From IMG/VR virus record IMGVR_UViG_3300030329_006606, positions 1 to 64,000 of that record: a stretch of DNA of 64,000 nucleotides; one strand, written 5' to 3'. Source of the DNA: a virus. This document shows positions 12,912-29,158 of the stretch, piece after piece. Each line of letters starts with the position of its first letter. Position 1 is the first letter of the stretch. The notes below the pieces were generated by a model. It was not told the origin of the DNA and did no database searches. It saw only the letters and a list, made by a program, of their open reading frames with translations. The translations under genes were made by a program, and so were the position numbers.

Positions 12912-13219
12912 TCTTTTTCCTGTTGTTCTTCTGTTAAACCGCTTGGGCACTGTGGTGCTGGGCAGGATTCAACTTGTTGATCACCACGTTCATCTAAGGA
13001 TACCTTAAGGTACTTAACGCGCGGCCTCCCGTTGGGAGATTTTACTTGGCCTACAACCTTTAGCTCCCCAGAATCAACCGCGCTATTTAGTTTGCTGTGG
13101 ATAGTAACTCTAGATACCTTCTTGGTACAAGAGTCTACCACATCCTGAGCGGTGAATACTACGTCTGGCCAGCTAATGTCTACTGGAGGCCTTCCTCTTT
13201 GCTTTTTATTCATGTCCAT
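12905..13219 (-). CDS. Putative winged-HTH DNA-binding protein with AT-hook-like RGRP
   Basis: RGRPP, FTAQDV...VSRVTIHSKL...GRP wing; first gene of leftward unit. Confidence 0.65.
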   Translation of the reverse strand: MDMNKKQRGRPPVDISWPDVVFTAQDVVDSCTKKVSRVTIHSKLNSAVDSGELKVVGQVKSPNGRPRVKYLKVSLDERGDQQVESCPAPQCPSGLTEEQQEKEW

Positions 13220-13296
13220 GTTATTATGTTAAATTAATTTTTTCCGGAGTCAACAGTTTTTTTTGTTTTTTATCAAGTTTTTTTTAATATAGATTT

Positions 13297-13755
13297 ATGA
13301 CAGTACAAGAGGCTTCTGGGAAACTTTACAATTGGTTTTACAATCATGATTCTTTTTGCTTGGATAATGATTTTAATTCGATTATCCCTATGACAGACCT
13401 TCCTGACAGGGATAAGGCGGCACTAGCTATAGCTTTGAAAAAGTTGGAAAGCGGGGGTATGCTCGCTTGCAGTGAAAGGGAAGGCGAAGATAAGAAGACT
13501 CATGATTATTACGTTCTTGAAAGAAGTTTTGATTCTTGGCAGCAAACCGTAGATATAGGGCCAACTAGCGCAAGGTTCATAGCTAACGAGCTTAATTCTT
13601 TTTGCGAATTAATAGAAGATAAAACTGATTGGTGTGATGTAACCTCCATTAGTGAAAAAGACGTAAGAAACTTGGTTCATATTATCGCCTTCTACAAAAA
13701 CAAAATTGAATCTGAGCCGCCGGAACCCCCAAAGGGGCGAAGAAAAAAAAGTTGA
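13297..13755 (+). CDS. Hypothetical protein
   Basis: 152-aa ORF, first rightward gene after the strand switch. Confidence 0.75.
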   Translation: MTVQEASGKLYNWFYNHDSFCLDNDFNSIIPMTDLPDRDKAALAIALKKLESGGMLACSEREGEDKKTHDYYVLERSFDSWQQTVDIGPTSARFIANELNSFCELIEDKTDWCDVTSISEKDVRNLVHIIAFYKNKIESEPPEPPKGRRKKS

Positions 13756-13779
13756 CTTTAATAAAAAAGCCGCTACACT
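13752..13779 (+). promoter_or_regulatory. sigma70-type promoter (TTGACT-N16-TACACT) facing a non-coding region
   Basis: Same geometry as 14 other promoters in the window. Confidence 0.75.
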
Positions 13780-13785
13780 GTTAAA

Positions 13786-14210
13786 TTAGTTCTTTGTTAG
13801 CGGTGAATAGCTTACGAGGGTTAACCTCGTATTAACTCATTAGAGACCACAGGCCCGTAAAAAGACCTTGGCTAAATAGACCTAATAAGTCTACTGTTAT
13901 TTCGGGAAAAAGCGGCAGTTGAAGTCAATGTAAGTAGAAATACTTAAGCTAGAAACTTAATCCTCCCAAGAGGAAAAAGGATAAGCAGTCATAAAGAAAA
14001 GTCCCACCGCCTAAAACAAAAACTACATAGCTTAACGAGTCAGCAAGCGAGACTAAAAGAGGTTAACGCGACGGACTGAAGCGGCTTGGTTAAGAGAAGA
14101 TTATGAATTTACTTCAAGTGGACAGCTATGTTCTTATCTCGAAAGCCTATTCGGCTTTCTCAACCCAGTGGAAAAATTTAAGGATAAGCAGTCACAATGA
14201 AGATTGTTAT
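13786..14210 (+). ncRNA. Candidate large structured non-coding RNA of unknown class
   Basis: 476-nt gap without a long ORF, own promoter, many hairpins, long-range pairings 13797-13805/14005-14014 and 14025-14032/14124-14131, 15-nt direct repeat. Confidence 0.6.
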
Positions 14211-14231
14211 ATTTAAGATTTAATTATTATT

Positions 14232-14870
14232 ATGAAATACATAGGACTATCAGGAGTGGCGGGTGCTGGCAAAGATTTATTCTTTTCTATGCTCTCAGAA
14301 AAAATTCAGTGTCAAAGGTTATCCTTAGCGGATGAACTTAAAGAGGATGTTAAAGACTGGTGTCTTTATAATTATGGTATTGATCCAACGTCATGCTCTA
14401 GAGAAGATAAGGATGTGCTTAGGCCATTCTTAGTTTTTCACGGTATGCAAAAGAGAAATAAATCCGATGGACGCTATTGGATAGACAGACTTCAGTTAAA
14501 AATTAAAGCCCTAGAGCAAAAGGTTAAGAACTCACCGTTTGAAGACATGTATGGTGTTATTACCGACATAAGATACGATGACTACGAATGGGATGAAGTT
14601 GGCTTTCTGAAGAACGAACTCAATGGTTGTTTGGTACACATCTTACAATACGAAGAAGAATCCGATTCGAATGAGGGATGTTTATACAGGCATCCTCGGC
14701 AACCCGCAAACGACGAGGAGGCTCGCAATGATCCCAAGTTAAAAAAGAAAGCTGATTTCAATATTGAATGGAAATTCTTGGAAAACGGTCAAATTGATAA
14801 ACTTACACCACATGTAGACGATTTTGTGGAGTGGTTAAAATCAAAAGATGAAAACGAAACCCCAAAATGA
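14232..14870 (+). CDS. Deoxynucleoside monophosphate kinase-like protein
   Basis: GLSGVAGAGKD P-loop, LADELK, YWI, VITDIRY...EV. Confidence 0.8.
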   Translation: MKYIGLSGVAGAGKDLFFSMLSEKIQCQRLSLADELKEDVKDWCLYNYGIDPTSCSREDKDVLRPFLVFHGMQKRNKSDGRYWIDRLQLKIKALEQKVKNSPFEDMYGVITDIRYDDYEWDEVGFLKNELNGCLVHILQYEEESDSNEGCLYRHPRQPANDEEARNDPKLKKKADFNIEWKFLENGQIDKLTPHVDDFVEWLKSKDENETPK

Positions 14871-15465
14871 CGAAATATTAGTAGAAAACGTCAAAGATAA
14901 AGGCTGTAATGAAAGTTACAAAGAAATACTCCACCGTCACGAGAATTTATTTTATAAAATATGCCAAAAATACATGCCAATTGTTTTATCTAAGGGGTTA
15001 GAAAAGAATGACCTCCTAGAAGACAAGCATTTTGTAGTATTTAAATCTATTAATTCATATCTTCCTAATAAAAATACTAAATTTTCTACATGGTTAGGGA
15101 ACTGCACCAGATACCACTGTTTAAATTTCATAAACTCCAACGGTAAGTACGTTAGCACCGAGGACGAGATAATTAAAAGTAGGATTGATTCAAAAGTTAA
15201 AGAATCTTACGCCGATGAAAGAGATGGAGTAACAAACTCGGAGTATATTTTTAATATTTTATACCAACTGAAAGACAAGCGTATAGCTGAGGTGTTTCGT
15301 TTAAGATATTTTAAAGACTTTGGTGATCAAAAAAAACCAACATGGAGTAGAATTGCTAAAGAAATCAACACGAGCACCCAGACAGCTATCAATTTACACC
15401 ATCGTGGGCAGAAAATCCTAAAAACAAAATTTGTTTCCAAGGAATATATGCCAGATAAAATTTAA
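14848..15465 (+). CDS. Phage sigma70-family sigma factor
   Basis: Region-2 KFSTWL motif and region-4 HTH (RLRYF...TWSRIAKEINTS). Confidence 0.85.
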   Translation: MKTKPQNDEILVENVKDKGCNESYKEILHRHENLFYKICQKYMPIVLSKGLEKNDLLEDKHFVVFKSINSYLPNKNTKFSTWLGNCTRYHCLNFINSNGKYVSTEDEIIKSRIDSKVKESYADERDGVTNSEYIFNILYQLKDKRIAEVFRLRYFKDFGDQKKPTWSRIAKEINTSTQTAINLHHRGQKILKTKFVSKEYMPDKI

Positions 15466-15503
15466 TGCTTGACTTAACTGAAAGGAATGTTATATTCGTA
15501 GGC

Positions 15504-15794
15504 ATGAGTGATAATCAAAAACAACAAACCGACTGGCAGAAAAGGGAGATTGGCGCGCTCTGGAAAAGAGAGAGCCCCAATCAGAAATATTTTTCTGGCC
15601 ATGTAACAGACCCCGATGGGAATCGTACCAAGGTGTTAATCTTCACCAACAAATCTAAGCAAAAAGATAACCAACCCGACTTTCGGGTATACAAGGCGGA
15701 TGATCAACCGCAACAATCAAGAGAATCTGCCACTGCGGCTGTAGCCTCAGAGGAGGTCGTCGATGATACCCAAATGGTAGACGACGTTCTTTAG
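15504..15794 (+). CDS. DUF736-like putative ssDNA-binding protein
   Basis: IGALWK...YFSG...FTN..K...PDFRVY with acidic tail; start placed after promoter at 15469-15496. Confidence 0.65.
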   Translation: MSDNQKQQTDWQKREIGALWKRESPNQKYFSGHVTDPDGNRTKVLIFTNKSKQKDNQPDFRVYKADDQPQQSRESATAAVASEEVVDDTQMVDDVL

Positions 15795-15797
15795 ATT

Positions 15798-16877
15798 ATG
15801 GGCTATGCTACAAATGTACCGATAAATCCTACTTCCTTCGGACAAGTTAGTATATCCATTCTAAGAGAACTATATAACAGGTCTTCAGAGCCGAGCCTCT
15901 TCCCGCTTGGCTCTGTTGACCTTAGTCCTTTTAGGGAGGATAAAGGGTTTACTGAATGGTTAAATGAATGTAAAGGTAAATCATACCTTCATTCTAGAAC
16001 TAACCCGTGCTTTAAGTTGTGGCACCTAAGTGGCGCGCTTGAATCCCCTAGTAAGGATCAAGCCTTAATGACTTTCTATGAGTGCAACCAGCCAACTAAA
16101 CCAGAAATCAACGCAGCACTCAACAACAACTTAATACTAACAAGCAAACACAGCCAAGCCATCTTTGAGTCAGTCGGCGTAAAATCAAACCTAGTACCAC
16201 TAGCTTTTGATGACTTTAGTTTTCATGAAACGAAAAGTAAATACTACGAAGACGATAGAATAGTTTTTAATCTCGCCGGTAAATTCGAGAAACGAAAAAA
16301 CCACGAGAAAATAATTAAAACGTGGGCAAAAAAATTTGGAAACAATAAAAAATACTATCTTCAATGTGCGTTATGGAATCACTTTTTTTCAGAAGAAGAT
16401 AATAAAGCTAATTTTAGAGGGTGCTTAAATGGAAAAAGCTATTTCAACGTACAATTCCTCGCTTACATGCCTGATAACGCTTCCTATAACGACTACCTAA
16501 ACTCCTCTGACATTATACTCTCTATGTCAGGCGGCGAAGGCTGGGGTTTGCCTGAATTTACATCCTTATGCCTAGGAAAGCATGCTGTAGTATTGAATGC
16601 TCACGCGTATAAAGAGTGGGCAACAAACGAAAACTCCGTCCTTGTCGAACCTAGCGGTGAATACGAAGCGTATGATAACCTTTTCTTTAAGAAAGGGGAC
16701 AACTTTAACCAAGGCTCGTTCCAAGACTTTAACGAAGATGATTTTATCTCAGCCTGTGAGGAGGCTATAAAAAGAGTTGAATCTAACAAAGTCAATATCA
16801 AGGGCACCGAATTAAAAGAACAATTTAATTATAAAAATACAGTTGATAAAATTGAATTAGTTCTAGATAATATGTAA
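15798..16877 (+). CDS. Glycosyltransferase (GT-B, GT4-like)
   Basis: GKFEKRKN and EGWGLPEF motifs. Confidence 0.85.
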   Translation: MGYATNVPINPTSFGQVSISILRELYNRSSEPSLFPLGSVDLSPFREDKGFTEWLNECKGKSYLHSRTNPCFKLWHLSGALESPSKDQALMTFYECNQPTKPEINAALNNNLILTSKHSQAIFESVGVKSNLVPLAFDDFSFHETKSKYYEDDRIVFNLAGKFEKRKNHEKIIKTWAKKFGNNKKYYLQCALWNHFFSEEDNKANFRGCLNGKSYFNVQFLAYMPDNASYNDYLNSSDIILSMSGGEGWGLPEFTSLCLGKHAVVLNAHAYKEWATNENSVLVEPSGEYEAYDNLFFKKGDNFNQGSFQDFNEDDFISACEEAIKRVESNKVNIKGTELKEQFNYKNTVDKIELVLDNM

Positions 16878-17218
16878 TGCCATTTTACGAATACAGACAT
16901 CCGGAGACAGGTGAAACCGTAGAAGTATTACAAAGTATGAAACAAGATCATACATTTGTTGACCCTGAAGGTGTCGAATGGCAACGAGTATTCCATGCTC
17001 CAAACGCATCCATCGACACGGAAATGGACCCATTCTCGCAATCCGACTGGGACAAGAGAACAAAAAAACCCGGCATGACCTACGGTGACATGATGGACTT
17101 ATCAAAAGAGATGAGTATTAAGAGGGAAAAATCCGCTGGCCTTGACCCAATCAAACAGAAAGCGGTTAAAAAATATGAAAAGAAATGTAGAAAACCTCAC
17201 CCCAACAAAAGCAAATGA
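16877..17218 (+). CDS. FmdB-like protein lacking zinc cysteines
   Basis: MPFYEY...G...E...M...RVF.AP pattern. Confidence 0.6.
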   Translation: MPFYEYRHPETGETVEVLQSMKQDHTFVDPEGVEWQRVFHAPNASIDTEMDPFSQSDWDKRTKKPGMTYGDMMDLSKEMSIKREKSAGLDPIKQKAVKKYEKKCRKPHPNKSK

Positions 17219-18504
17219 AATTTTCCGTATTCACAATATCTCACGACCTGAAACATTTAGATAGACCACTAAACAGTCTCCTATCTCAAACGTATAAAGA
17301 TTTTGAATGGGTCATATTACTTAACGGCGACGCTGTAGATGAGTCCGAAGATCTTAAAAAAAGACTAGGTCACAAATCTAAAGAGTTTGGTTTAGATTTT
17401 AAAGTTCATGTTTACCCCAAGCAATCAAACATGAATATCGGCGCCCTTAAAAAAGCTTGCTGCACTCTGTCGAGTGGAGAGGTTCTTGTCGAATTAGACC
17501 ACGATGATGCCCTAAGAGAAGATTGCCTCTACAAACTCGCCGCAGCTTTTCAAAACGAGAAGATAGATTTTGTATACAGTGACGATTACTACGTAGACAT
17601 AAGAGGAGGAAAAGAAGATTTTACGAGACCATTTAACGAAGAGTACGGTTGGCGCAACGCTGTAGACTCCCACGGTCGCCAATATTGTTCTGGGTTTGAT
17701 CCATCACCATTATCATTTTCCTTCATATGGTACGCACCCGACCACGTAAGGTCTTGGAGAAAATCTTTTTACCACAAGATAGGAGGGCACAACATAGAGT
17801 TAGATGTCTGTGATGATTATGAATTATGCGCTCGAACTTATATAGAAGGTGAGTGCCTAAGAATACCTGAACCATTATACTTTTACCACCTACACGAAGA
17901 ACAAACTTTCCGCAACGAAAAGAATGAAAGAATACAGCAGCTTACACAACAGCTTCACGATAAATTCATCTATAAAATCGTAGAAAAATGGTGCGACGAA
18001 AACAAGTTATTAAAAGTAGATTTATGCAGTTGTGACAATAAACCAGAGGGATACATAGGCGTAGATAAACGCTCGCTAAATAAAGATGACATCCTTTTTG
18101 ATTTAGATAAAAAAGATTGGCCATTCAAAGATGGCTCCGTTGGACTATTCAGAGCCCAAGACGCAGTAGAACACCTAAAAAACCCAATAAACACCATGTC
18201 AGAAATGTACAGATGCCTCACTGACTTCGGCTGGAGCATGATAGAAGTTCCATCCACCGATGGCCGCGGCGCATTTCAAGACCCAACTCATGTTAGTTTT
18301 TGGAACAGTAACAGTTTCTGGTATTATACCAAAGGACACATGGCGAACTTTATTGGATCACCAGTAGCCTTTAAAGATTACAGGTTACTTAACTATTACC
18401 CATCAGAATGGCATGAAACTCACGATATACCCTACACTAAGGCTCACCTCGTAAAATTACCTTGGGACCAAAATATAATTCCACCCGGCGGTCGCCAAAT
18501 TTAA
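17215..18504 (+). CDS. GT2 glycosyltransferase fused to SAM-methyltransferase-like domain
   Basis: SLLSQTYKDFEW, ELDHDD, DDYEL; C-terminal DAVEHL...EMYR...AFQDPTH. Confidence 0.85.
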   Translation: MKFSVFTISHDLKHLDRPLNSLLSQTYKDFEWVILLNGDAVDESEDLKKRLGHKSKEFGLDFKVHVYPKQSNMNIGALKKACCTLSSGEVLVELDHDDALREDCLYKLAAAFQNEKIDFVYSDDYYVDIRGGKEDFTRPFNEEYGWRNAVDSHGRQYCSGFDPSPLSFSFIWYAPDHVRSWRKSFYHKIGGHNIELDVCDDYELCARTYIEGECLRIPEPLYFYHLHEEQTFRNEKNERIQQLTQQLHDKFIYKIVEKWCDENKLLKVDLCSCDNKPEGYIGVDKRSLNKDDILFDLDKKDWPFKDGSVGLFRAQDAVEHLKNPINTMSEMYRCLTDFGWSMIEVPSTDGRGAFQDPTHVSFWNSNSFWYYTKGHMANFIGSPVAFKDYRLLNYYPSEWHETHDIPYTKAHLVKLPWDQNIIPPGGRQI

Positions 18505-18571
18505 TTTTTTTTCTTTCATTTTTGTAAAGTGCTGGTATTATATATCTACCACACCGAAAGGTTTCAAGAGT

Positions 18572-21040
18572 ATGAGTCTGGAAGTATTGCATGTAAAAAA
18601 AAGAAACGGTAGAATCCAAGAACTAGATATTAATAAAGTTAACCTTTGCGCCCAGCGAGCCTGTGAAGATATTACTGATGTCTCAGCAAGCGAAGTAATC
18701 ATTGACGCCAACGTACAACTTTATGATAAAATTCCAACGAAGGAAATTGATAAAGCTCTCATCATGTCAGCGAGAGCTAAGATAGAAAAGGAACCAAACT
18801 ATTCTTATGTTGCAGCTAAACTTCTTTTAGGAAATGTACACAAAGAAGTGTTCGGGGTAAGCGTTGATAAAGATGCTTTCGATCACCAATACAGACTCTC
18901 TTTTGTAAGAAATATCAAACTACTAGTTAAAGAAGGTGTCCTTAACGAACAACTATTAGATTTTGATTTAAAAATGCTATCAGAAAATCTGTCTCTCGAC
19001 CGCGATTTTAAATTTAAATACCTAGGACTTCAGATCCTCTATGATCGTTACTTTCATAAACTAAACAATAGGAGACTAGAGTCTCCGCAATCTTTCTGGA
19101 TGCGCGTCGCCATGGGGTTATCCATAAACGAAAAAAATAAAAATGAAAAAGCGATTGAATTTTACAATGCACTATCCCAGTTTCATTTATGTTGCTCTAC
19201 GCCCACCCTTTTTAATAGCGGCAGCACCCATAGCCAGCTTAGTTCTTGTTATCTCAACACTTTTGATGACAGCATCGATGGCATATTTGAGGGTGCTTGG
19301 CAAGAAGCTCGAAAATCTAAATACGCTGGAGGACTAGGCTTCGATGTTACAAATTTTCGCTCATCTGGAGCCTACATAAAAGGCACTAACGGAAACTCTA
19401 GCGGCTTAGTACCTTGGCTTAAAATCTACAACGATCTACTCGTCGCCGTAAACCAAGGGGGCAAACGTCCCGGAGCGGGATGCGCATACCTAGAGCCTTG
19501 GCATCTAGATATAGAAGAATTCTTAGATCTGAAAAAAAATACCGGCGAGGAAAGGCGTAGATGCCACGACATAAACACAGCCAACTGGATTCCTGATTTA
19601 TTCTTTCGCTACGTAAAGAACGACGCGGATTGGTATCTTTTTTCTCCATCGGATGTTGACCTCCACAGCGTGTGGGGCGAAGAGTTTGATAAAAAATATA
19701 AAAAATATACGAAGCTAGCTAAAGACGGAAAAATCAAAAACTACAAGGTTGTAAAAGCCAAAACCTTATGGAAAAAGATGTTACGCGTTCTATTTGAAAC
19801 AGGTCACCCATGGATCACCTTCAAGGATAATGCTAACTTCCGATACTCAAATCAACATGAAGGGATAATTAATAGCTCTAACTTATGCACGGAGATTTTT
19901 CTGCACACGAAACCCTCTCAATACAAAAACGGAGAAAAAACCGAAATCGGAGAGACGGCTGTGTGCAACCTTAGCTCCGTTAACCTAAAGGAGCACCTAA
20001 AAGATAACGGTAAGATAGATTTCAAGCTCCTATCTAAAACTATATCCACCCAAATGAGGATGCTAGACAATGTTATCGATTTAAATTTTTACCCCACAAA
20101 AGAAGCTGAAAAATCAAACCTAAAACATCGCCCCGTTGGGGCAGGAACTATGGGTTGGGCAGACGTTTTTCATTCTTATAAAATCAACTTCTCCTCAGAC
20201 GAAGCTGTTAGGATGTCTGACGAGTTATACGAATTTATTTCGTTTCATTGTATCTCTAACTCAAATAAAATAGCCAAAGAAAAAGGTGCGTACAGCACGT
20301 TCGAAGGCTCCCTCTGGAGCCAAGGTATACTCCCAAAAGATACCTACAAAAATCTAATGAATTATATGGGCGAAAAACCAATCAACCACAAACTTAAAAA
20401 GTACTGCCCAGATGTAGATTGGAATTTCCTAAAACAAAGAGTTAAAGAACATGGGATGAGGAACAGCAACACTATGGCAGTGGCCCCCACAGCGACGATT
20501 AGTTACATACAAGGCTGCTCACCATCCGTAGAGCCAGACTTCTCGACGATTTTCGTATACGAGAATAGCTCCGGTAACCTTTTGATCACAAACGAGTGGT
20601 TTGTAAAAGAGTGTAAAGATCTCAACATTTGGGACAATAACTTTATTGAAACATTAAAATCCGTTGACGGAGACGTTAAAAGATTAAATGGCGAACTACC
20701 ACCAGAAATCAAAGAAAGATACAAAACCGCATTTGACCACGACCAATTTATTTTAATCGATTGTGCTGCCGTAAGACAGAAGTGGATTGATATGGGACAA
20801 AGTTTAAACTTGTTTAACAATAAAAGTTCGCTAAAATACTTGAATGATGTATACATGCATGCAAGAGGTCGCGGGCTAAAGAGTACATATTACCTAAGGA
20901 ATAAGAGTGCGAGCCAGATTGAGAAATCAACTCAAAAAAGTAGTGACAACAGTGATAGTGACACAGGTGGTGCTAATGATAATACTGTTGATCCTAAAGC
21001 TTGTTCAATCCTAGACCCAACATGTGAGAGTTGCCAATGA
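18572..21040 (+). CDS. nrdA: Ribonucleotide reductase class I alpha subunit with ATP cone
   Basis: VKKRNG ATP cone, TPTLFN, SSCYL, NQGGKRPG, SNLCTE, APTATIS, KSTYY, C-terminal CxxxxxxCESCQ. Confidence 0.97.
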   Translation: MSLEVLHVKKRNGRIQELDINKVNLCAQRACEDITDVSASEVIIDANVQLYDKIPTKEIDKALIMSARAKIEKEPNYSYVAAKLLLGNVHKEVFGVSVDKDAFDHQYRLSFVRNIKLLVKEGVLNEQLLDFDLKMLSENLSLDRDFKFKYLGLQILYDRYFHKLNNRRLESPQSFWMRVAMGLSINEKNKNEKAIEFYNALSQFHLCCSTPTLFNSGSTHSQLSSCYLNTFDDSIDGIFEGAWQEARKSKYAGGLGFDVTNFRSSGAYIKGTNGNSSGLVPWLKIYNDLLVAVNQGGKRPGAGCAYLEPWHLDIEEFLDLKKNTGEERRRCHDINTANWIPDLFFRYVKNDADWYLFSPSDVDLHSVWGEEFDKKYKKYTKLAKDGKIKNYKVVKAKTLWKKMLRVLFETGHPWITFKDNANFRYSNQHEGIINSSNLCTEIFLHTKPSQYKNGEKTEIGETAVCNLSSVNLKEHLKDNGKIDFKLLSKTISTQMRMLDNVIDLNFYPTKEAEKSNLKHRPVGAGTMGWADVFHSYKINFSSDEAVRMSDELYEFISFHCISNSNKIAKEKGAYSTFEGSLWSQGILPKDTYKNLMNYMGEKPINHKLKKYCPDVDWNFLKQRVKEHGMRNSNTMAVAPTATISYIQGCSPSVEPDFSTIFVYENSSGNLLITNEWFVKECKDLNIWDNNFIETLKSVDGDVKRLNGELPPEIKERYKTAFDHDQFILIDCAAVRQKWIDMGQSLNLFNNKSSLKYLNDVYMHARGRGLKSTYYLRNKSASQIEKSTQKSSDNSDSDTGGANDNTVDPKACSILDPTCESCQ

Positions 21041-27203: not shown

Positions 27204-27239
27204 GGTTGACTCACTAAAAAACCCTGATACACTATAATA

Positions 27240-27632: not shown

Positions 27633-28710
27633 TACAGAAGAAGGTAAATCCCCCTTAGGTCAGATACAGACCTACCTAGAGCAAAACAAGGCGGATCATT
27701 ATAACTTTGAAGAAGAAAGAAGTTATGTAGTTTCGAGCGGAAGCTTACTCTTGGATATAGAAATGGGTGGTGGTATTGGCCCCGGGATCATCCGAGCCTC
27801 AGGAATAACAGAGGGAGGTAAAACATCCTGCGCCCTTTCCTTTGCTAAAAATTTCCAGAAGATGGATAATGCTATGGTAGTCTACATTAAATCAGAAGGC
27901 AGACTCTCTCAAGAGATGCTTGAAAGATCTGGTGTAGATACAAACGAAGACAAATGGTTCGTTTATAAAAGTAACGTTTATGAATCGGTTATTAACCTAA
28001 TGAGGGAGTTAGTAAAGAATAATCCTGAGAACTATAAGTATATGTTTATTATAGATTCAATGGATTCCTTGGTTCCAAAAAATGACCTAGAGAAACCACC
28101 CGAAGAAGCAAACAAGGTGGCTGGCGGAGCATTACTTAGCGCAGACTTTCTCCGCAAAATGGCCCTAGGACTAACAACCCGCGGCCACATATGTTATATG
28201 GTGTCACAAGTAAGAAGCAAAGTTTCCATAAACCCTTACGAGAAAGTAGATGCTCGCGTAACAAATGCCTCAGGAGGCAACGCATTACTACACTACAGTG
28301 ACTGGATTATTGAATTTCAAGAAAGACACCTGAAAGATATTATAAGCACCCAACCTCAAGGCAAAGGCGATCTCTTAGGCCACTGGTGTAAGGTTGTATT
28401 TAAAAAGAGCCCGAACGAAAAAACGGGCACCATGGTCAGATACCCTATTAGATATGGCCGAACAGATGGAAAGAGTATATGGGTCGAGTATGAAGTAGTA
28501 GACATGATGTTGCAGTGGGACATGGCCTCAGCCAGAGGAGCGTGGGTTACGATCTCTGACGAAGTGGTAGAAGAAGTGCAAGAAAAAACAGGTCAAGAAT
28601 TTAAAAAACAACACCAAGGTATGGACAACTTCAGGAAATACCTTGAAGAGAACAAGGAGATAGGTAAACATCTTTTTTATAAATTTAGAGATGTTTTGAA
28701 AAAGTCTTAA
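27610..28710 (+). CDS. recA: RecA/UvsX-like recombinase
   Basis: SSGSLLLD, GITEGGKTS Walker A, FIIDS Walker B, SQVR, SGGNALLHY. Confidence 0.88.
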   Translation: MARKKKTDTEEGKSPLGQIQTYLEQNKADHYNFEEERSYVVSSGSLLLDIEMGGGIGPGIIRASGITEGGKTSCALSFAKNFQKMDNAMVVYIKSEGRLSQEMLERSGVDTNEDKWFVYKSNVYESVINLMRELVKNNPENYKYMFIIDSMDSLVPKNDLEKPPEEANKVAGGALLSADFLRKMALGLTTRGHICYMVSQVRSKVSINPYEKVDARVTNASGGNALLHYSDWIIEFQERHLKDIISTQPQGKGDLLGHWCKVVFKKSPNEKTGTMVRYPIRYGRTDGKSIWVEYEVVDMMLQWDMASARGAWVTISDEVVEEVQEKTGQEFKKQHQGMDNFRKYLEENKEIGKHLFYKFRDVLKKS

Positions 28711-28731
28711 TCTATGTGTATAATATTTTAT

Positions 28732-29158
28732 GGGAGCGTACTGGATTCGATTTAGAACCTTACGCCAGATTGCAAGCAGAGGATAATGGTTGGCCTCTTA
28801 AAACATCCATTAAAAAATCCAAATGCCAATGATACCATTGACATGGAGATGGCCCCTTCGCTAGCCGAAGCTGACGCGATCCTCGCTAAGTTCGGTTATG
28901 TTGAAGAGGAAACTCTCCAACTAGCAGCTTAAGTTCTGCTACGTCCTACTCTGGATGCTCGTTAAAGAGATAGGGCGACGACAGCGAGCAAAACACTGGT
29001 TGAGTCTGGTTGAGTCTCCAGTAGTTTAAAAAAAGATAGACCAAACCTTACGTGAAGTCGTCGGCCACGGACACGTATTGAATTAGGCCGACTAAGCTTG
29101 TAGTACATTTGAGCCGATGGCTTTAAAGACGCGGGTTCGACTCCCGCCGCTTCCACCA
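28732..29158 (+). ncRNA. ssrA: tmRNA
   Basis: 5' GGGAGCG..GGATTCGA, 3' GCGGGTTCGACTCCCGC CGCTTCC-ACCA, G3:U70 pair, tag ORF 28825-28932 ending LAA-stop; TTGAAA-N17-TATAAT promoter upstream. Confidence 0.95.

What the first reader, a model, noticed from the sequence alone, without database searches (positions are those of the whole stretch)
13752..14231. Promoter-driven ~420-nt highly structured non-coding element of no recognisable class
Seen: the largest unexplained gap in a tightly packed genome. It starts with a TTGACT-N16-TACACT promoter, then a boxA-like GTTCTTTG. Domain 1 is closed by TTAGCGGTG (13797-13805) with CACCGCCTAA (14005-14014, one bulge) and holds hairpins TACGAGG/CCTCGTA (13813-13831), TAGAC/GTCTA, TAAGTA-GAAA-TACTTA (13931-13946, GNRA loop) and TCCTC/GAGGA. 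Domain 2 is closed by ACATAGCT (14025-14032)/AGCTATGT (14124-14131), followed by GAAAGCC/GGCTTTC. Inference: a large phage ncRNA, or a long regulatory leader for the dNMP kinase-sigma factor operon. I cannot match it to RNase P, 6S, SRP or an intron.
Basis: partly seen in the sequence, partly recalled or inferred. Interest (0 to 1): 0.85.

Follow-up and report, generated by a model that had tools for sequence, protein, structure and literature searches.

The report
New large folded phage RNA
The gap holds a real, promoter-driven, roughly 420-base RNA with an intricate conserved fold that matches no catalogued RNA family and sits at the head of a marine phage's early kinase and sigma-factor genes; what it does is still unknown.

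Summary
The 476-nt ORF-free gap (13756-14231) is real and is the largest in the window. It encodes a + strand structured RNA of about 420 nt (13788 to about 14209). A sigma-70-like promoter ends 4-8 nt before RNA position 1 in 31 of 33 distinct upstream regions. I collected 36 distinct full-length relatives from uncultured phages. The RNA is more conserved than the adjacent kinase gene in 190 of 190 pairs. Covariation is strong: 23 of 101 pairs change on both sides, against 9.8 in shuffles and 1-5 in slid controls. No Rfam family matches.

Its domain-2 closure does not. Its "boxA" is one strand of a long-range helix.

New here: a pseudoknot, two repeats that co-evolve in concert, and a second unrelated ~370-nt RNA. 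That second RNA replaces this one in relatives: 29 versus 23 of 80 loci, never both.

Function is untested. I put 0.40 on a trans-acting RNA particle and 0.35 on a cis-acting leader. The scan found this family before on other DNA (e1-6045179).

The parts
13752..13779 (+). Sigma-70-like promoter TTGACT-N16-TACACT, preceded by an A-rich tract
   Evidence: A TTGnnn-N16-18-TAnnnT promoter ends 4-8 nt before RNA position 1 in 31 of 33 distinct upstream regions of family members. The sequence between the hexamers is not conserved.
13788..14209 (+). Structured RNA ('class I'). Conservation starts sharply at AGTTCTTTG. The 3' limit is approximate: the last block conserved in the close group is GAAGATTGTTA.
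   Evidence: Alignments. nhmmer match 13788-14214. Covariation.
13791..13797 (+). It pairs with 14016-14022 (ACAAAAA). P1 is weak in this window (6 bp) and reaches 8-12 bp in relatives.
   Evidence: Examples: AGTTCTTTATCT/AGGTAAAGAACT (L235) versus AGTTCTTTGTCT/AGACAAAGAACT (L236); TCTTTTTA/TAAAAAGA (L214); GTTCTTTTAA/TTAAAAGAGC (L203).
13800..13805 (+). P2 5' strand GCGGTG. It pairs with CACCGC at 14005-14010 and closes domain 1.
   Evidence: 14 of 14 representatives pair, with 5 strand variants (for example GCAGTG/CACTGC, GCGGCG/CGCCGC, GCGGTA/TACCGC). helix 2.
13810..13813 (+). Pseudoknot 5' strand GCTT. It pairs with AAGC at 13910-13913, inside the loop of hairpin Hd.
   Evidence: 14 of 14 pair, with 4 variants (GCTT/AAGC, GCGC/GCGC, GTGC/GCAC, GCCT/AGGC). 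Strands were extracted by anchors, not by complementarity.
13814..13830 (+). Hairpin P3, ACGAGG/CCTCGT. It is optional and absent in L214 and L203.
   Evidence: helix 4: 4 of 6 pairs change on both sides..
13851..13868 (+). Hairpin Ha (AGG/CCT) with the near-invariant loop CCCGTAAAAAG. CCCG (13854-13857) can pair with CGGG (13903-13906).
   Evidence: The only variant, L192, has TCCG with CGGA. The rest are invariant, so this contact is weakly tested.
13868..13928 (+). Helix Hb, TTGGCT (13868-13873) with AGTCAA (13923-13928). It encloses hairpins Hc (TAGAC/GTCTA, 13877-13893) and Hd (CTGTT/GGCAG, 13894-13918).
   Evidence: Hb is complementary in 11 of 14 representatives, with 7 different strand pairs (TTAGCC/GGCTAA, TTAACC/GGTTAA, ACAAAC/GTTTGT, CCAATC/GATTGG, CTAATC/GATTAG and others). 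The 3 misses are the L235 group, which has an insertion. Hc has 6 variants.
13931..13946 (+). Hairpin He, TAAGTA-GAAA-TACTTA. It is variable or optional.
   Evidence: helix 12: 5 of 6 pairs change on both sides. Absent in L214 and L203.
13948..13991 (+). Unit A: 5' strand GCTAG..CTT, small hairpin CCTC/GAGG, A-run, and repeat R1 (AAGGATAAGCAGTCA, 13977-13991).
   Evidence: The direct repeat is shown. The R1 core covaries with the strand just 5' of GAAAC across lineages (read): GCTAG/TAAGC, GTTAG/CTGAC (L191), CCAG/CTGG (L203), TCCTG/TGGGA (L214).
14031..14094 (+). Domain 2: a long hairpin closed by CTTAAC/GTTAAG, with inner helices AGTC/GACT, GCG/CGC and GACT/GGTT, and the conserved bulge GGACTGAAGCGGCTT.
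   Evidence: helices 16-18. The closing helix differs in every lineage but stays complementary: CTTTAGC/GCTAAAG (L192), GAGTG/CACTC (L191), AAGAGTTA/TAACTCTT (L235), GGTATTA/TAATAC (L203).
14095..14118 (+). Variable region between domain 2 and strand S. It is length- and sequence-variable; a hairpin is likely but not resolved.
14121..14193 (+). Unit B: strand S (GACAGCTATGTTCTT, 14121-14135), optional hairpin GAAAGCC/GGCTTTC (14141-14159), A-run, and repeat R2 (AAGGATAAGCAGTC, 14180-14193). S pairs with R2 over 13 bp.
   Evidence: helix 19: 98.9% of cells paired, but 9 of 13 pairs never vary. S is equally complementary to R1, because R1 and R2 are identical.
14232..14870 (+). Next gene downstream: dNMP-kinase-like P-loop protein, followed by a sigma factor at 14848-15465.
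   Evidence: phrog_139 at E 1.8e-11. Sigma70_r2 at E 3.7e-06.

Best explanation
Shown: the gap encodes a + strand RNA of about 420 nt from an uncatalogued family.
- Host-type RNA polymerase would start it at a conserved early promoter.
- It folds into a closed, pseudoknotted domain 1 (helices P1 and P2 enclosing Ha, Hb, Hc and Hd, plus the GCUU/AAGC pseudoknot).
- Domain 1 is followed by a long hairpin (domain 2) and a 3' module (unit B).
- It carries two copies of one 14-15-nt strand (R1, R2), each forming the 3' half of a similar helix. The two copies change together from lineage to lineage.

Inferred (0.40): it is a functional RNA in its own right. It is made early, as the first part of the rightward early transcript, and acts in trans as a folded particle. 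It presents two like helical modules to one common partner, either a protein dimer or two copies of a host or phage factor. That would make it a scaffold or decoy rather than a message.

Inferred: it is freed from the transcript by processing. RNase P would do this where a tRNA abuts its 3' end, as in L191.
For: Real RNA:
- 95.7% of 2817 cells pair. 23 of 101 pairs change on both sides, against 9.8 +/- 1.8 in 500 shuffles (0 of 500 as high) and 1-5 in six slid controls.
- G-U/A-U alternations fit only the + strand.
- Anchor-defined helices keep pairing with 4-7 different strand pairs across 14 representatives.
- The RNA is more conserved than the kinase gene in 190 of 190 pairs. Medians are 76.7% versus 57.1% nucleotide identity.
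- Promoter in 31 of 33 upstream regions.

For an autonomous, trans-acting role:
- A second, unrelated ~370-nt RNA occupies the same neighbourhood in 23 of 80 kinase loci, against 29 of 80 for this RNA and 0 with both.
- The two classes are interleaved on the kinase tree, with at least 3 changes each forced by well-supported branches.
- The second RNA has its own promoter and a terminator-like hairpin. In L198/L003 and L220 it lies on the strand opposite the kinase.
- L192 has a second promoter between this RNA and the kinase.
- In L191 a tRNA-Gly starts directly after the RNA.
- R1 and R2 are identical within each of 6 of the 7 lineages but differ between lineages.
Against: - No terminator follows the RNA in the window or in most relatives. 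The next gene starts 9-60 nt later on the same strand, so physically it is a leader.
- No transcript ends were seen. The one 100%-identical metatranscriptome contig (13696-14008) starts 93 nt upstream of the predicted start and breaks at A-rich runs.
- No partner is known.
- That the two RNA classes do the same job is inferred from exclusivity, not shown. Relatedness of the loci inflates that exclusivity.
- The pairing of S with R2 is mostly invariant, so it is barely tested by covariation.
Confidence: 0.4

Rival explanations
1. Cis-acting leader. The RNA works on the transcription complex or transcript that makes it, and sets how much expression reaches the kinase, the sigma factor and later early genes. 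It could be a promoter-proximal processivity or antitermination RNA, like phage HK022 put or lambda nut (recalled, not read here). Or it could be a switch in which strand S pairs with either R1 or R2.
For: - It always has the same orientation and lies directly upstream of the next early gene: the kinase in the window and the close group, a glycosyltransferase-like ORF in L203, and tRNA-Gly then the kinase in L191.
- There is no terminator and, in most members, no second promoter before the kinase. The operon must therefore be transcribed through it.
- R1 is identical to R2, and S is complementary to both. That gives a ready pair of mutually exclusive helices and would explain their concerted change.
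- In X1 the contig over the RNA has depth 16, against 5.8 for contigs over the kinase and sigma genes. This is weak evidence.
That note is not independent evidence.
Against: - No expression platform was found: no terminator after S:R2 and no sequestered ribosome-binding site.
- The gene that follows is not constant.
- The alternative RNA class can sit on the other strand, with its own terminator.
- 420 nt is several times larger than the antitermination RNAs I recall.
- In L191 the core of R2 is not complementary to S (read).
Confidence: 0.35
2. Nus-factor boxA site. The 5' GUUCUUUG would recruit NusB/NusE, so that the long untranslated transcript escapes Rho termination, as in rRNA operons.
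For: - GTTCTTTGTTA matches 8 of the 10 specified positions of the gamma-proteobacterial consensus GYTCTTTAANA (PMC5725501, passages read). It shares the UCUUUG core with the B. subtilis consensus (PMC13753749, passages read).
- The GUUCUUU core is kept in 6 of 7 lineages.
- It sits at the start of a long untranslated RNA.
Against: - The string is the 5' strand of helix P1, and its variable 3' part covaries with the partner strand.
- Positions 8-9 of the consensus are not met.
- L191 has GCUUUUU instead.
- A 12-nt site does not explain 420 conserved bases.
- The 8-mer is not enriched in the window: 13 found against 7.6 +/- 2.8 expected, with 6 of 100 shuffles as high.
- The host is unknown.
Confidence: 0.12
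3. DNA-level element: a replication origin or a protein-bound control region, with the two 15-bp repeats acting as binding sites.
For: - Two exact 15-bp direct repeats lie 203 bp apart and change together between lineages, as operator or iteron sites would.
- The element lies about 500 bp from the switch between leftward and rightward genes.
- An AT-rich stretch follows it.
Against: - More than 20 base pairs covary in a strand-specific way, with G-U pairs that would be A-C on the other strand.
- Conservation starts exactly at the predicted transcript start.
- The repeat cores covary with intramolecular partner strands.
- There are only two repeats.
- Cumulative GC skew shows no clear turning point here.
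Confidence: 0.05

Closest known systems
Large 'ornate' orphan RNAs of bacteria and phages: GOLLD, ROOL, OLE, raiA
   Same: It is several hundred nucleotides long, with many helices plus pseudoknots and long invariant unpaired stretches. It is carried by phages and in one lineage sits next to a tRNA gene. Its function is unknown. Source: PMC12286853 (search listing and start of abstract only); the rest is recalled.
   Different: There is no sequence or structure match to any of their Rfam models. It is smaller than GOLLD and ROOL. It is always at the head of one specific early operon. Nothing tested here bears on multimer formation.
Promoter-proximal antitermination elements of lambdoid phages (HK022 put RNA; lambda nut with boxA) and rRNA-operon boxA
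   Same: It comes directly after a strong early promoter, ahead of a long early operon. Its 5' end has a boxA-like core (PMC5725501 and PMC13753749, passages read).
   Different: It is about 420 nt, against tens of nucleotides (recalled). The boxA-like string is base-paired in P1. No read-through of terminators has been shown, and the first + strand terminator-like site is about 7 kb downstream.
Riboswitch and attenuator leaders with mutually exclusive helices
   Same: It has a highly conserved folded 5' region. It also has a strand (S) that could pair with either of two identical partners (R1, R2).
   Different: No terminator and no hairpin masking a ribosome-binding site follows. The gene that follows is not constant. 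No ligand is suggested by the context.
The RNA family noted earlier by this scan on another genome (e1-6045179: ~420-nt RNA ahead of tRNA-Gly, early kinase and sigma genes)
   Same: The size, the promoter-driven start and the neighbouring genes all match. My divergent member L191 is followed directly by tRNA-Gly, and the stretch behind that note shares short words with my sequence. It is very probably the same family.
   Different: I could not read that genome's sequence, so identity of family is inferred. That note did not mention the alternation with a second RNA class.

Membership tests
Any Rfam 15 family (4227 models) | A covariance-model match at or above the family's gathering score | tested here: not met
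   Whole window at gathering score: only the tmRNA and 3 tRNAs, all elsewhere. Region 13650-14350 at E up to 10: three chance-level hits of 11.7-15 bits against cut-offs of 44-94.
Bacterial RNase P RNA (types A and B) | A match to RF00010 or RF00011, including the P4 pseudoknot core | tested here: not met
   Each model was searched alone over the 88.8-kb record at E up to 10, with 0 matches. The control genomes were hit in 11 of 14.
tmRNA | A tRNA-like end pair plus a tag reading frame | tested here: not met
   ARAGORN and Rfam find the phage's tmRNA at 28732-29158 and nothing at 13752-14231.
Group I or group II intron | A catalytic-core model match and flanking exons of a split gene | tested here: not met
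   No intron family among the matches up to E 10. The element lies between complete genes.
Nus-factor boxA site | Match to the published consensus (GYTCTTTAANA in gamma-proteobacteria) | tested here: inconclusive
   8 of the 10 specified positions match. Positions 8 and 9 do not (window sequence against PMC5725501, passages). The host and its own consensus are unknown.
Nus-factor boxA site | The site is accessible as single-stranded RNA | tested here: not met
   The string is the 5' strand of helix P1, with compensatory changes in 5 lineages. It could still be free for a time during transcription.
Nus-factor boxA site | NusB-NusE binding and Rho resistance | not testable with these tools
   This needs biochemistry or genetics in the unknown host.
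Riboswitch or attenuator leader | An expression platform: an intrinsic terminator or a hairpin masking the ribosome-binding site, next to the conserved fold | tested here: not met
   No + strand terminator-like site in 13200-21000, and none after S:R2. The gene start lies 23 nt beyond the last conserved block in the window.
Replication origin or iteron region | Conservation explained at the DNA level: strand-symmetric, with multiple iterons | tested here: not met
   The covariation is strand-specific with G-U pairs. Only two repeats are present.
New family 'class I' (this report; probably the same as e1-6045179) | Promoter-adjacent start AGUUCUUU; P1 and P2 enclosing domain 1; the GCUU/AAGC-type pseudoknot; the loop CCCGUAAAAAG; GGAYUGAA in domain 2; two concerted repeats | tested here: met
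   The window matches the family profile over 13788-14214 at E 1.5e-127. All the named features are present.

The most novel reading that the evidence does not exclude
This RNA and the unrelated ~370-nt 'class II' RNA are interchangeable cassettes for one early-infection task, carried out by RNA alone or by an RNA-protein particle. That task could be re-programming or shielding the host's transcription or translation machinery, or blunting a defence system. If so, marine phages have invented the same function at least twice in RNA. The paired, co-evolving repeats found in both classes would be the working surface.
Probability: 0.25. Interest if true: 0.9.

Novelty: categorically new. Interest (0 to 1): 0.72.

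Why it matters
Large RNAs with intricate conserved folds are rare. The known ones (ribosomal RNA, RNase P, self-splicing introns, tmRNA, riboswitches) each turned out to have a basic job.

Here is one that a whole group of uncultured ocean phages keeps far better than the proteins encoded beside it. It is placed at the very start of their early programme, next to the phage's own sigma factor. Relatives carry a second, unrelated RNA in its place and never both, which gives a natural genetic handle on function.

The family now has enough diverse members for structure probing, cryo-EM and a proper family model. If it acts on RNA polymerase or the ribosome, it would be a new way for a virus to take over a cell. 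If it is a leader switch, it would be an unusually large one.

Tried and rejected
**Protein-coding readings.** No ORF appears under code 11, code 4, TAG=Q or TAA=Q. The phage's tRNAs are Leu-taa, Val-tac and Arg-tct, with no suppressor.

**Single-sequence folding.** Not significant: z -1.08 and -1.43.

**Named phage genomes.** blastn 'distant' of 13297-14870 against 50,697 phage records gave no match.

**Genome collection.** A 19-mer gave 5 bacterial loci. None resembles the RNA by blastn at E 1e-5; in nhmmer their best matches are E 0.088 (L160) and 0.39-3.3 (L159, L161-L163). They are chance matches, so no host was found.

**Metagenome 19-mer hits.** 3 of 26 (L135, L136, L140) are chance matches inside coding sequence.

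**First alifold model.** Its 5'/3' terminal helix (UCUUU/GAAGA) and its AAGU pairing for GCUU were dropped. They were replaced by P1 with the linker and by the GCUU/AAGC pseudoknot.

**Ribosum alifold on the 36-sequence MAFFT alignment.** It mis-paired Hb because the 3' strands were misaligned. I replaced it with anchor-based extraction.

**Shuffle tests for P1 and the domain-2 closure.** These are weak because the strands are A/U-rich. P1 was at most 1 of 2000 only in the L235 group and 29-1423 of 2000 elsewhere; D2a was 11-1603 of 2000. The case for these two helices rests on compensatory changes.

**Resemblance to the RNase P P4 region.** This was recalled from memory and was not borne out by the models or by the architecture.

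**RNA-seq.** One search listed 17 runs, 15 holding part of the stretch. Four were laid, and all are contigs.
- X1 (marine metatranscriptome) has 100%-identical contigs over 13696-14008, 14514-14721 and 14940-15000.
- X2, X3 and X6 hold relatives' copies.
- The contigs include sequence upstream of the predicted start in X1 and X6. They cannot show ends, strand or level, and DNA carry-over is not excluded.
- Stretches without cover mean nothing.

**Literature.** Four searches found no description of this RNA. One search returned only primer noise. PMC10690425 (passages read) lists 8495 phage RNA candidates of 29-151 nt from the same virus collection. Pieces of this RNA may be among them.

**Covariance model.** None was built. 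The RNA exceeds the tool's practical size limit, so I used nhmmer profiles instead.

**Small ORFs of L005.** The 70-aa and 58-aa ORFs I first took as genes have no Pfam or PHROG match. They lie inside the class II RNA.
Full report
**What is there**

The window is the first 64 kb of an 88.8-kb virus record, classed as a provirus and estimated 57% complete. Leftward genes run up to 13219 and rightward genes start at 13297.

Between a 152-aa ORF (13297-13755) and a dNMP-kinase-like gene (14232-14870; phrog_139) lie 476 nt with no ORF of 70 aa or more on either strand. This is the largest such gap in the window. The next largest, 457 nt, is the phage's tmRNA. A sigma factor follows the kinase (Sigma70_r2).

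**Relatives**

The kinase protein and short conserved DNA words brought in viral and metagenome contigs.
- blastn and an nhmmer profile found the element at 84-90% identity in many of them, giving 28 distinct full-length sequences (alignment A2).
- A profile of ten kinase homologues fetched 80 more loci. nhmmer then found eight much more distant full-length copies: L191, L192, L203, L214, L235, L236, L238 and L242, at 57-75% identity to the window.
- In all, 75 held loci match, with many contigs fetched more than once.
- The runs I laid that hold the element carry marine or seawater labels.
- No named phage matched and no bacterial genome held it. The host is unknown.

**It is an RNA on the + strand**

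- Conservation begins abruptly at AGTTCTTTG. A TTGnnn-N16-18-TAnnnT promoter, variable between its hexamers, ends 4-8 nt upstream in 31 of 33 distinct upstream regions.
- The RNA is more conserved than the neighbouring kinase gene in 190 of 190 pairs of 20 distinct loci. Median nucleotide identity is 76.7% against 57.1%, and the kinase protein median is 49.1%.
- On A2, with a structure I set by hand, 95.7% of 2817 cells are standard pairs. Twenty-three of 101 pairs change on both sides, against 9.8 +/- 1.8 in shuffles (0 of 500 as high) and 1-5 when partners are slid by 1-3 columns.
- Several pairs alternate between A-U and G-U, or between U-A and U-G (for example 14/14 and 16/12 of 28). On the other strand these would be mismatches.
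- This window's own sequence does not fold better than shuffles (z -1.08). The case is comparative.

**The fold**

I took strands by their distance from conserved anchors, not by complementarity, in 14 representatives.
- P2 pairs in 14 of 14, with 5 strand variants.
- A pseudoknot between GCUU (after P2) and AAGC (in the loop of hairpin Hd) pairs in 14 of 14, with 4 variants: GCUU/AAGC, GCGC/GCGC, GUGC/GCAC and GCCU/AGGC.
- Helix Hb pairs in 11 of 14, with 7 quite different strand pairs. The three misses are one lineage with an insertion.
- Hc has 6 variants, and Hd changes U-A to C-G or A-U.
L235 and L236, which are close relatives, differ by a compensated change inside 12-bp helices. L214, L203 and L191 have their own matched versions. 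In the window P1 is only 6 bp.
- Domain 2 is a long hairpin. Its closing helix is different in every lineage yet complementary, and within the close group it covaries as C-G 15 / U-A 12 of 28.
- Three hairpins are optional and missing in some lineages.
- A contact CCCG/CGGG between two loops is possible. Only one lineage varies there (UCCG/CGGA).

**The repeats**

AAGGATAAGCAGTCA occurs twice, 203 nt apart.
- Each copy follows a small hairpin and an A-run. Each forms the 3' half of a helix with an upstream strand of similar sequence: unit A at 13948-13991 and unit B at 14121-14193.
- Between lineages the repeat changes, and both copies change alike: GGCAAGCAGUC twice (L126), GGCUGACAGUC twice (L191), GCUGGGAGUC twice (L214) and GCUGGCAGUU twice (the L235 group). 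In L192 the second copy differs from the first by one base (GGCAAGCAGUC then GGCAAGCAGCC). Only L203 has two clearly different copies.
- A loop position in the two small hairpins also changes in step: C/C in 24 and U/U in 4 of 28.
- In unit A the repeat core covaries with its partner (GCUAG/UAAGC, GUUAG/CUGAC, CCAG/CUGG, UCCUG/UGGGA; read). The repeats are therefore RNA helices, not only DNA sites.
- Two independently folding modules would be free to drift apart, and these do not. Either one strand (S) can pair with both copies, which would make a switch, or one partner reads both modules.

**Context**

- The RNA always points the same way as the genes that follow. The kinase follows in the window and the close group. 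In L203 a glycosyltransferase-like ORF starts 9 nt after the second repeat. In L191 a tRNA-Gly starts directly after the RNA.
- There is no terminator-like site after it. In most members I saw no second promoter, though L192 has one.
- Of the 80 kinase loci, 29 have this RNA.
- Looking at the rest, I found that 23 carry a different conserved non-coding element of about 370 nt in the same neighbourhood. It has its own TTGAC promoter and a covarying fold, a C-run/G-run hairpin with a U-rich tail, and again two co-evolving direct repeats. It has no Rfam match at E up to 0.1.
- No locus has both: 0 of 80, and 0 among 75 plus 25 held loci. The window's 88.8-kb record has one copy of the first RNA and none of the second.
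- On a kinase tree of 56 distinct proteins, the first RNA needs 6 changes and the second needs 8. At least 3 of each are forced by well-supported branches. The two have therefore replaced each other repeatedly.
- In L198/L003 and L220 the second RNA lies on the strand opposite the kinase.

**What it is not**

- No Rfam family matches at gathering score or up to E 10.
- The RNase P models searched alone give nothing, while they ring in 11 of 14 control genomes.
- The tmRNA is elsewhere.
- It is not an intron: it lies between whole genes and no model matches.
- It is not a plain boxA site. The string matches 8 of the 10 specified positions of the published gamma-proteobacterial consensus (PMC5725501, passages), but it is base-paired in P1.
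- It is not a classical riboswitch, because it has no expression platform.
- A DNA-level origin or operator reading cannot explain strand-specific covariation.

**How it most likely works**

The RNA, its promoter, its fold and its family are shown. The rest is inferred.

I put 0.40 on an autonomous, trans-acting RNA particle that offers two like modules to one partner. Four things favour this:
- it is interchangeable with an independently transcribed, terminator-bearing RNA that can sit on the other strand;
- a tRNA abuts it in L191;
- L192 has a second promoter;
- it is conserved along its whole length.

I put 0.35 on a cis-acting leader, either an antitermination-type element or an S:R1/S:R2 switch. 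Its fixed place ahead of the early operon and the lack of any terminator favour this.

A Nus-boxA role gets 0.12, and only as an add-on. A DNA-level role gets 0.05.

The RNA-seq contigs show that the phage's early region is present in a marine metatranscriptome. The contig over the RNA has higher depth (16 against 5.8). Contigs cannot give ends, and one starts upstream of the predicted start.

**Novelty**

I found no description in four literature searches.

This scan has met the family before on another genome (e1-6045179), and has met what looks like the second RNA class as well (e1-5725423, e1-5725431). Those notes are unchecked leads.

New in this report:
- the corrected fold, with P1 and the pseudoknot;
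- the concerted evolution of the repeats;
- the mutually exclusive alternation of the two RNA classes.

Noticed in passing
Loci L183 (2118-2496), L190, L194 (2079-2435), L197, L218, L219, L216, L230, L185-L189, L193, L196, L198 (- strand), L200, L215, L217, L220 (- strand), L222, L225, L226: A second, unrelated structured RNA of about 370 nt ('class II'). It has its own TTGAC promoter, a C-run/G-run hairpin with a U-rich tail, and two co-evolving direct repeats. It has no Rfam match at E up to 0.1. It is found in 23 of 80 kinase loci and never together with the window's RNA.
   Followed up: partly
L191 2352-2427: A tRNA-Gly (anticodon GCC) begins directly after the 3' end of the divergent family member in L191, ahead of the kinase gene.
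   Followed up: partly
window 28696-29158: The phage tmRNA (130.7 bits) has a near-consensus promoter, TTGAAA-N17-TATAAT, ending 8 nt before it. That is the same promoter-then-RNA layout as the element studied. ARAGORN reads a 21-residue tag, whereas an earlier first-reader note (e1-6115439) spoke of 35 residues.
   Followed up: no
window 27206-27233: A second promoter has the same hexamers as the RNA's promoter (TTGACT-N16-TACACT), here with a TG extension. This suggests a shared early promoter type.
   Followed up: no
L043 1954-2481 (also L086 820-1344 and L033 2192-2737): Some relatives carry an extra 174-181-aa ORF between the upstream gene and the RNA's promoter. In L043 it has an FKBP-type peptidyl-prolyl isomerase domain (E 2e-10).
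   Followed up: no
window 13220-13296: This is the divergent intergenic region where gene orientation switches from leftward to rightward. It has a - strand promoter-like site, TTGACT-N16-TAACAT, at 13253-13226. Cumulative GC skew shows no clear minimum here.
   Followed up: partly
L199, L201, L208-L211, L213 and others: In my gap count over 64 of the 80 loci, 15 kinase loci have the kinase start overlapping or abutting the upstream ORF (gap of 0 nt or less). Of these, the L199/L201/L208-L211/L213 clade has neither RNA class within 2.5 kb. Whether those phages carry one elsewhere, or a third kind, is open.
   Followed up: no
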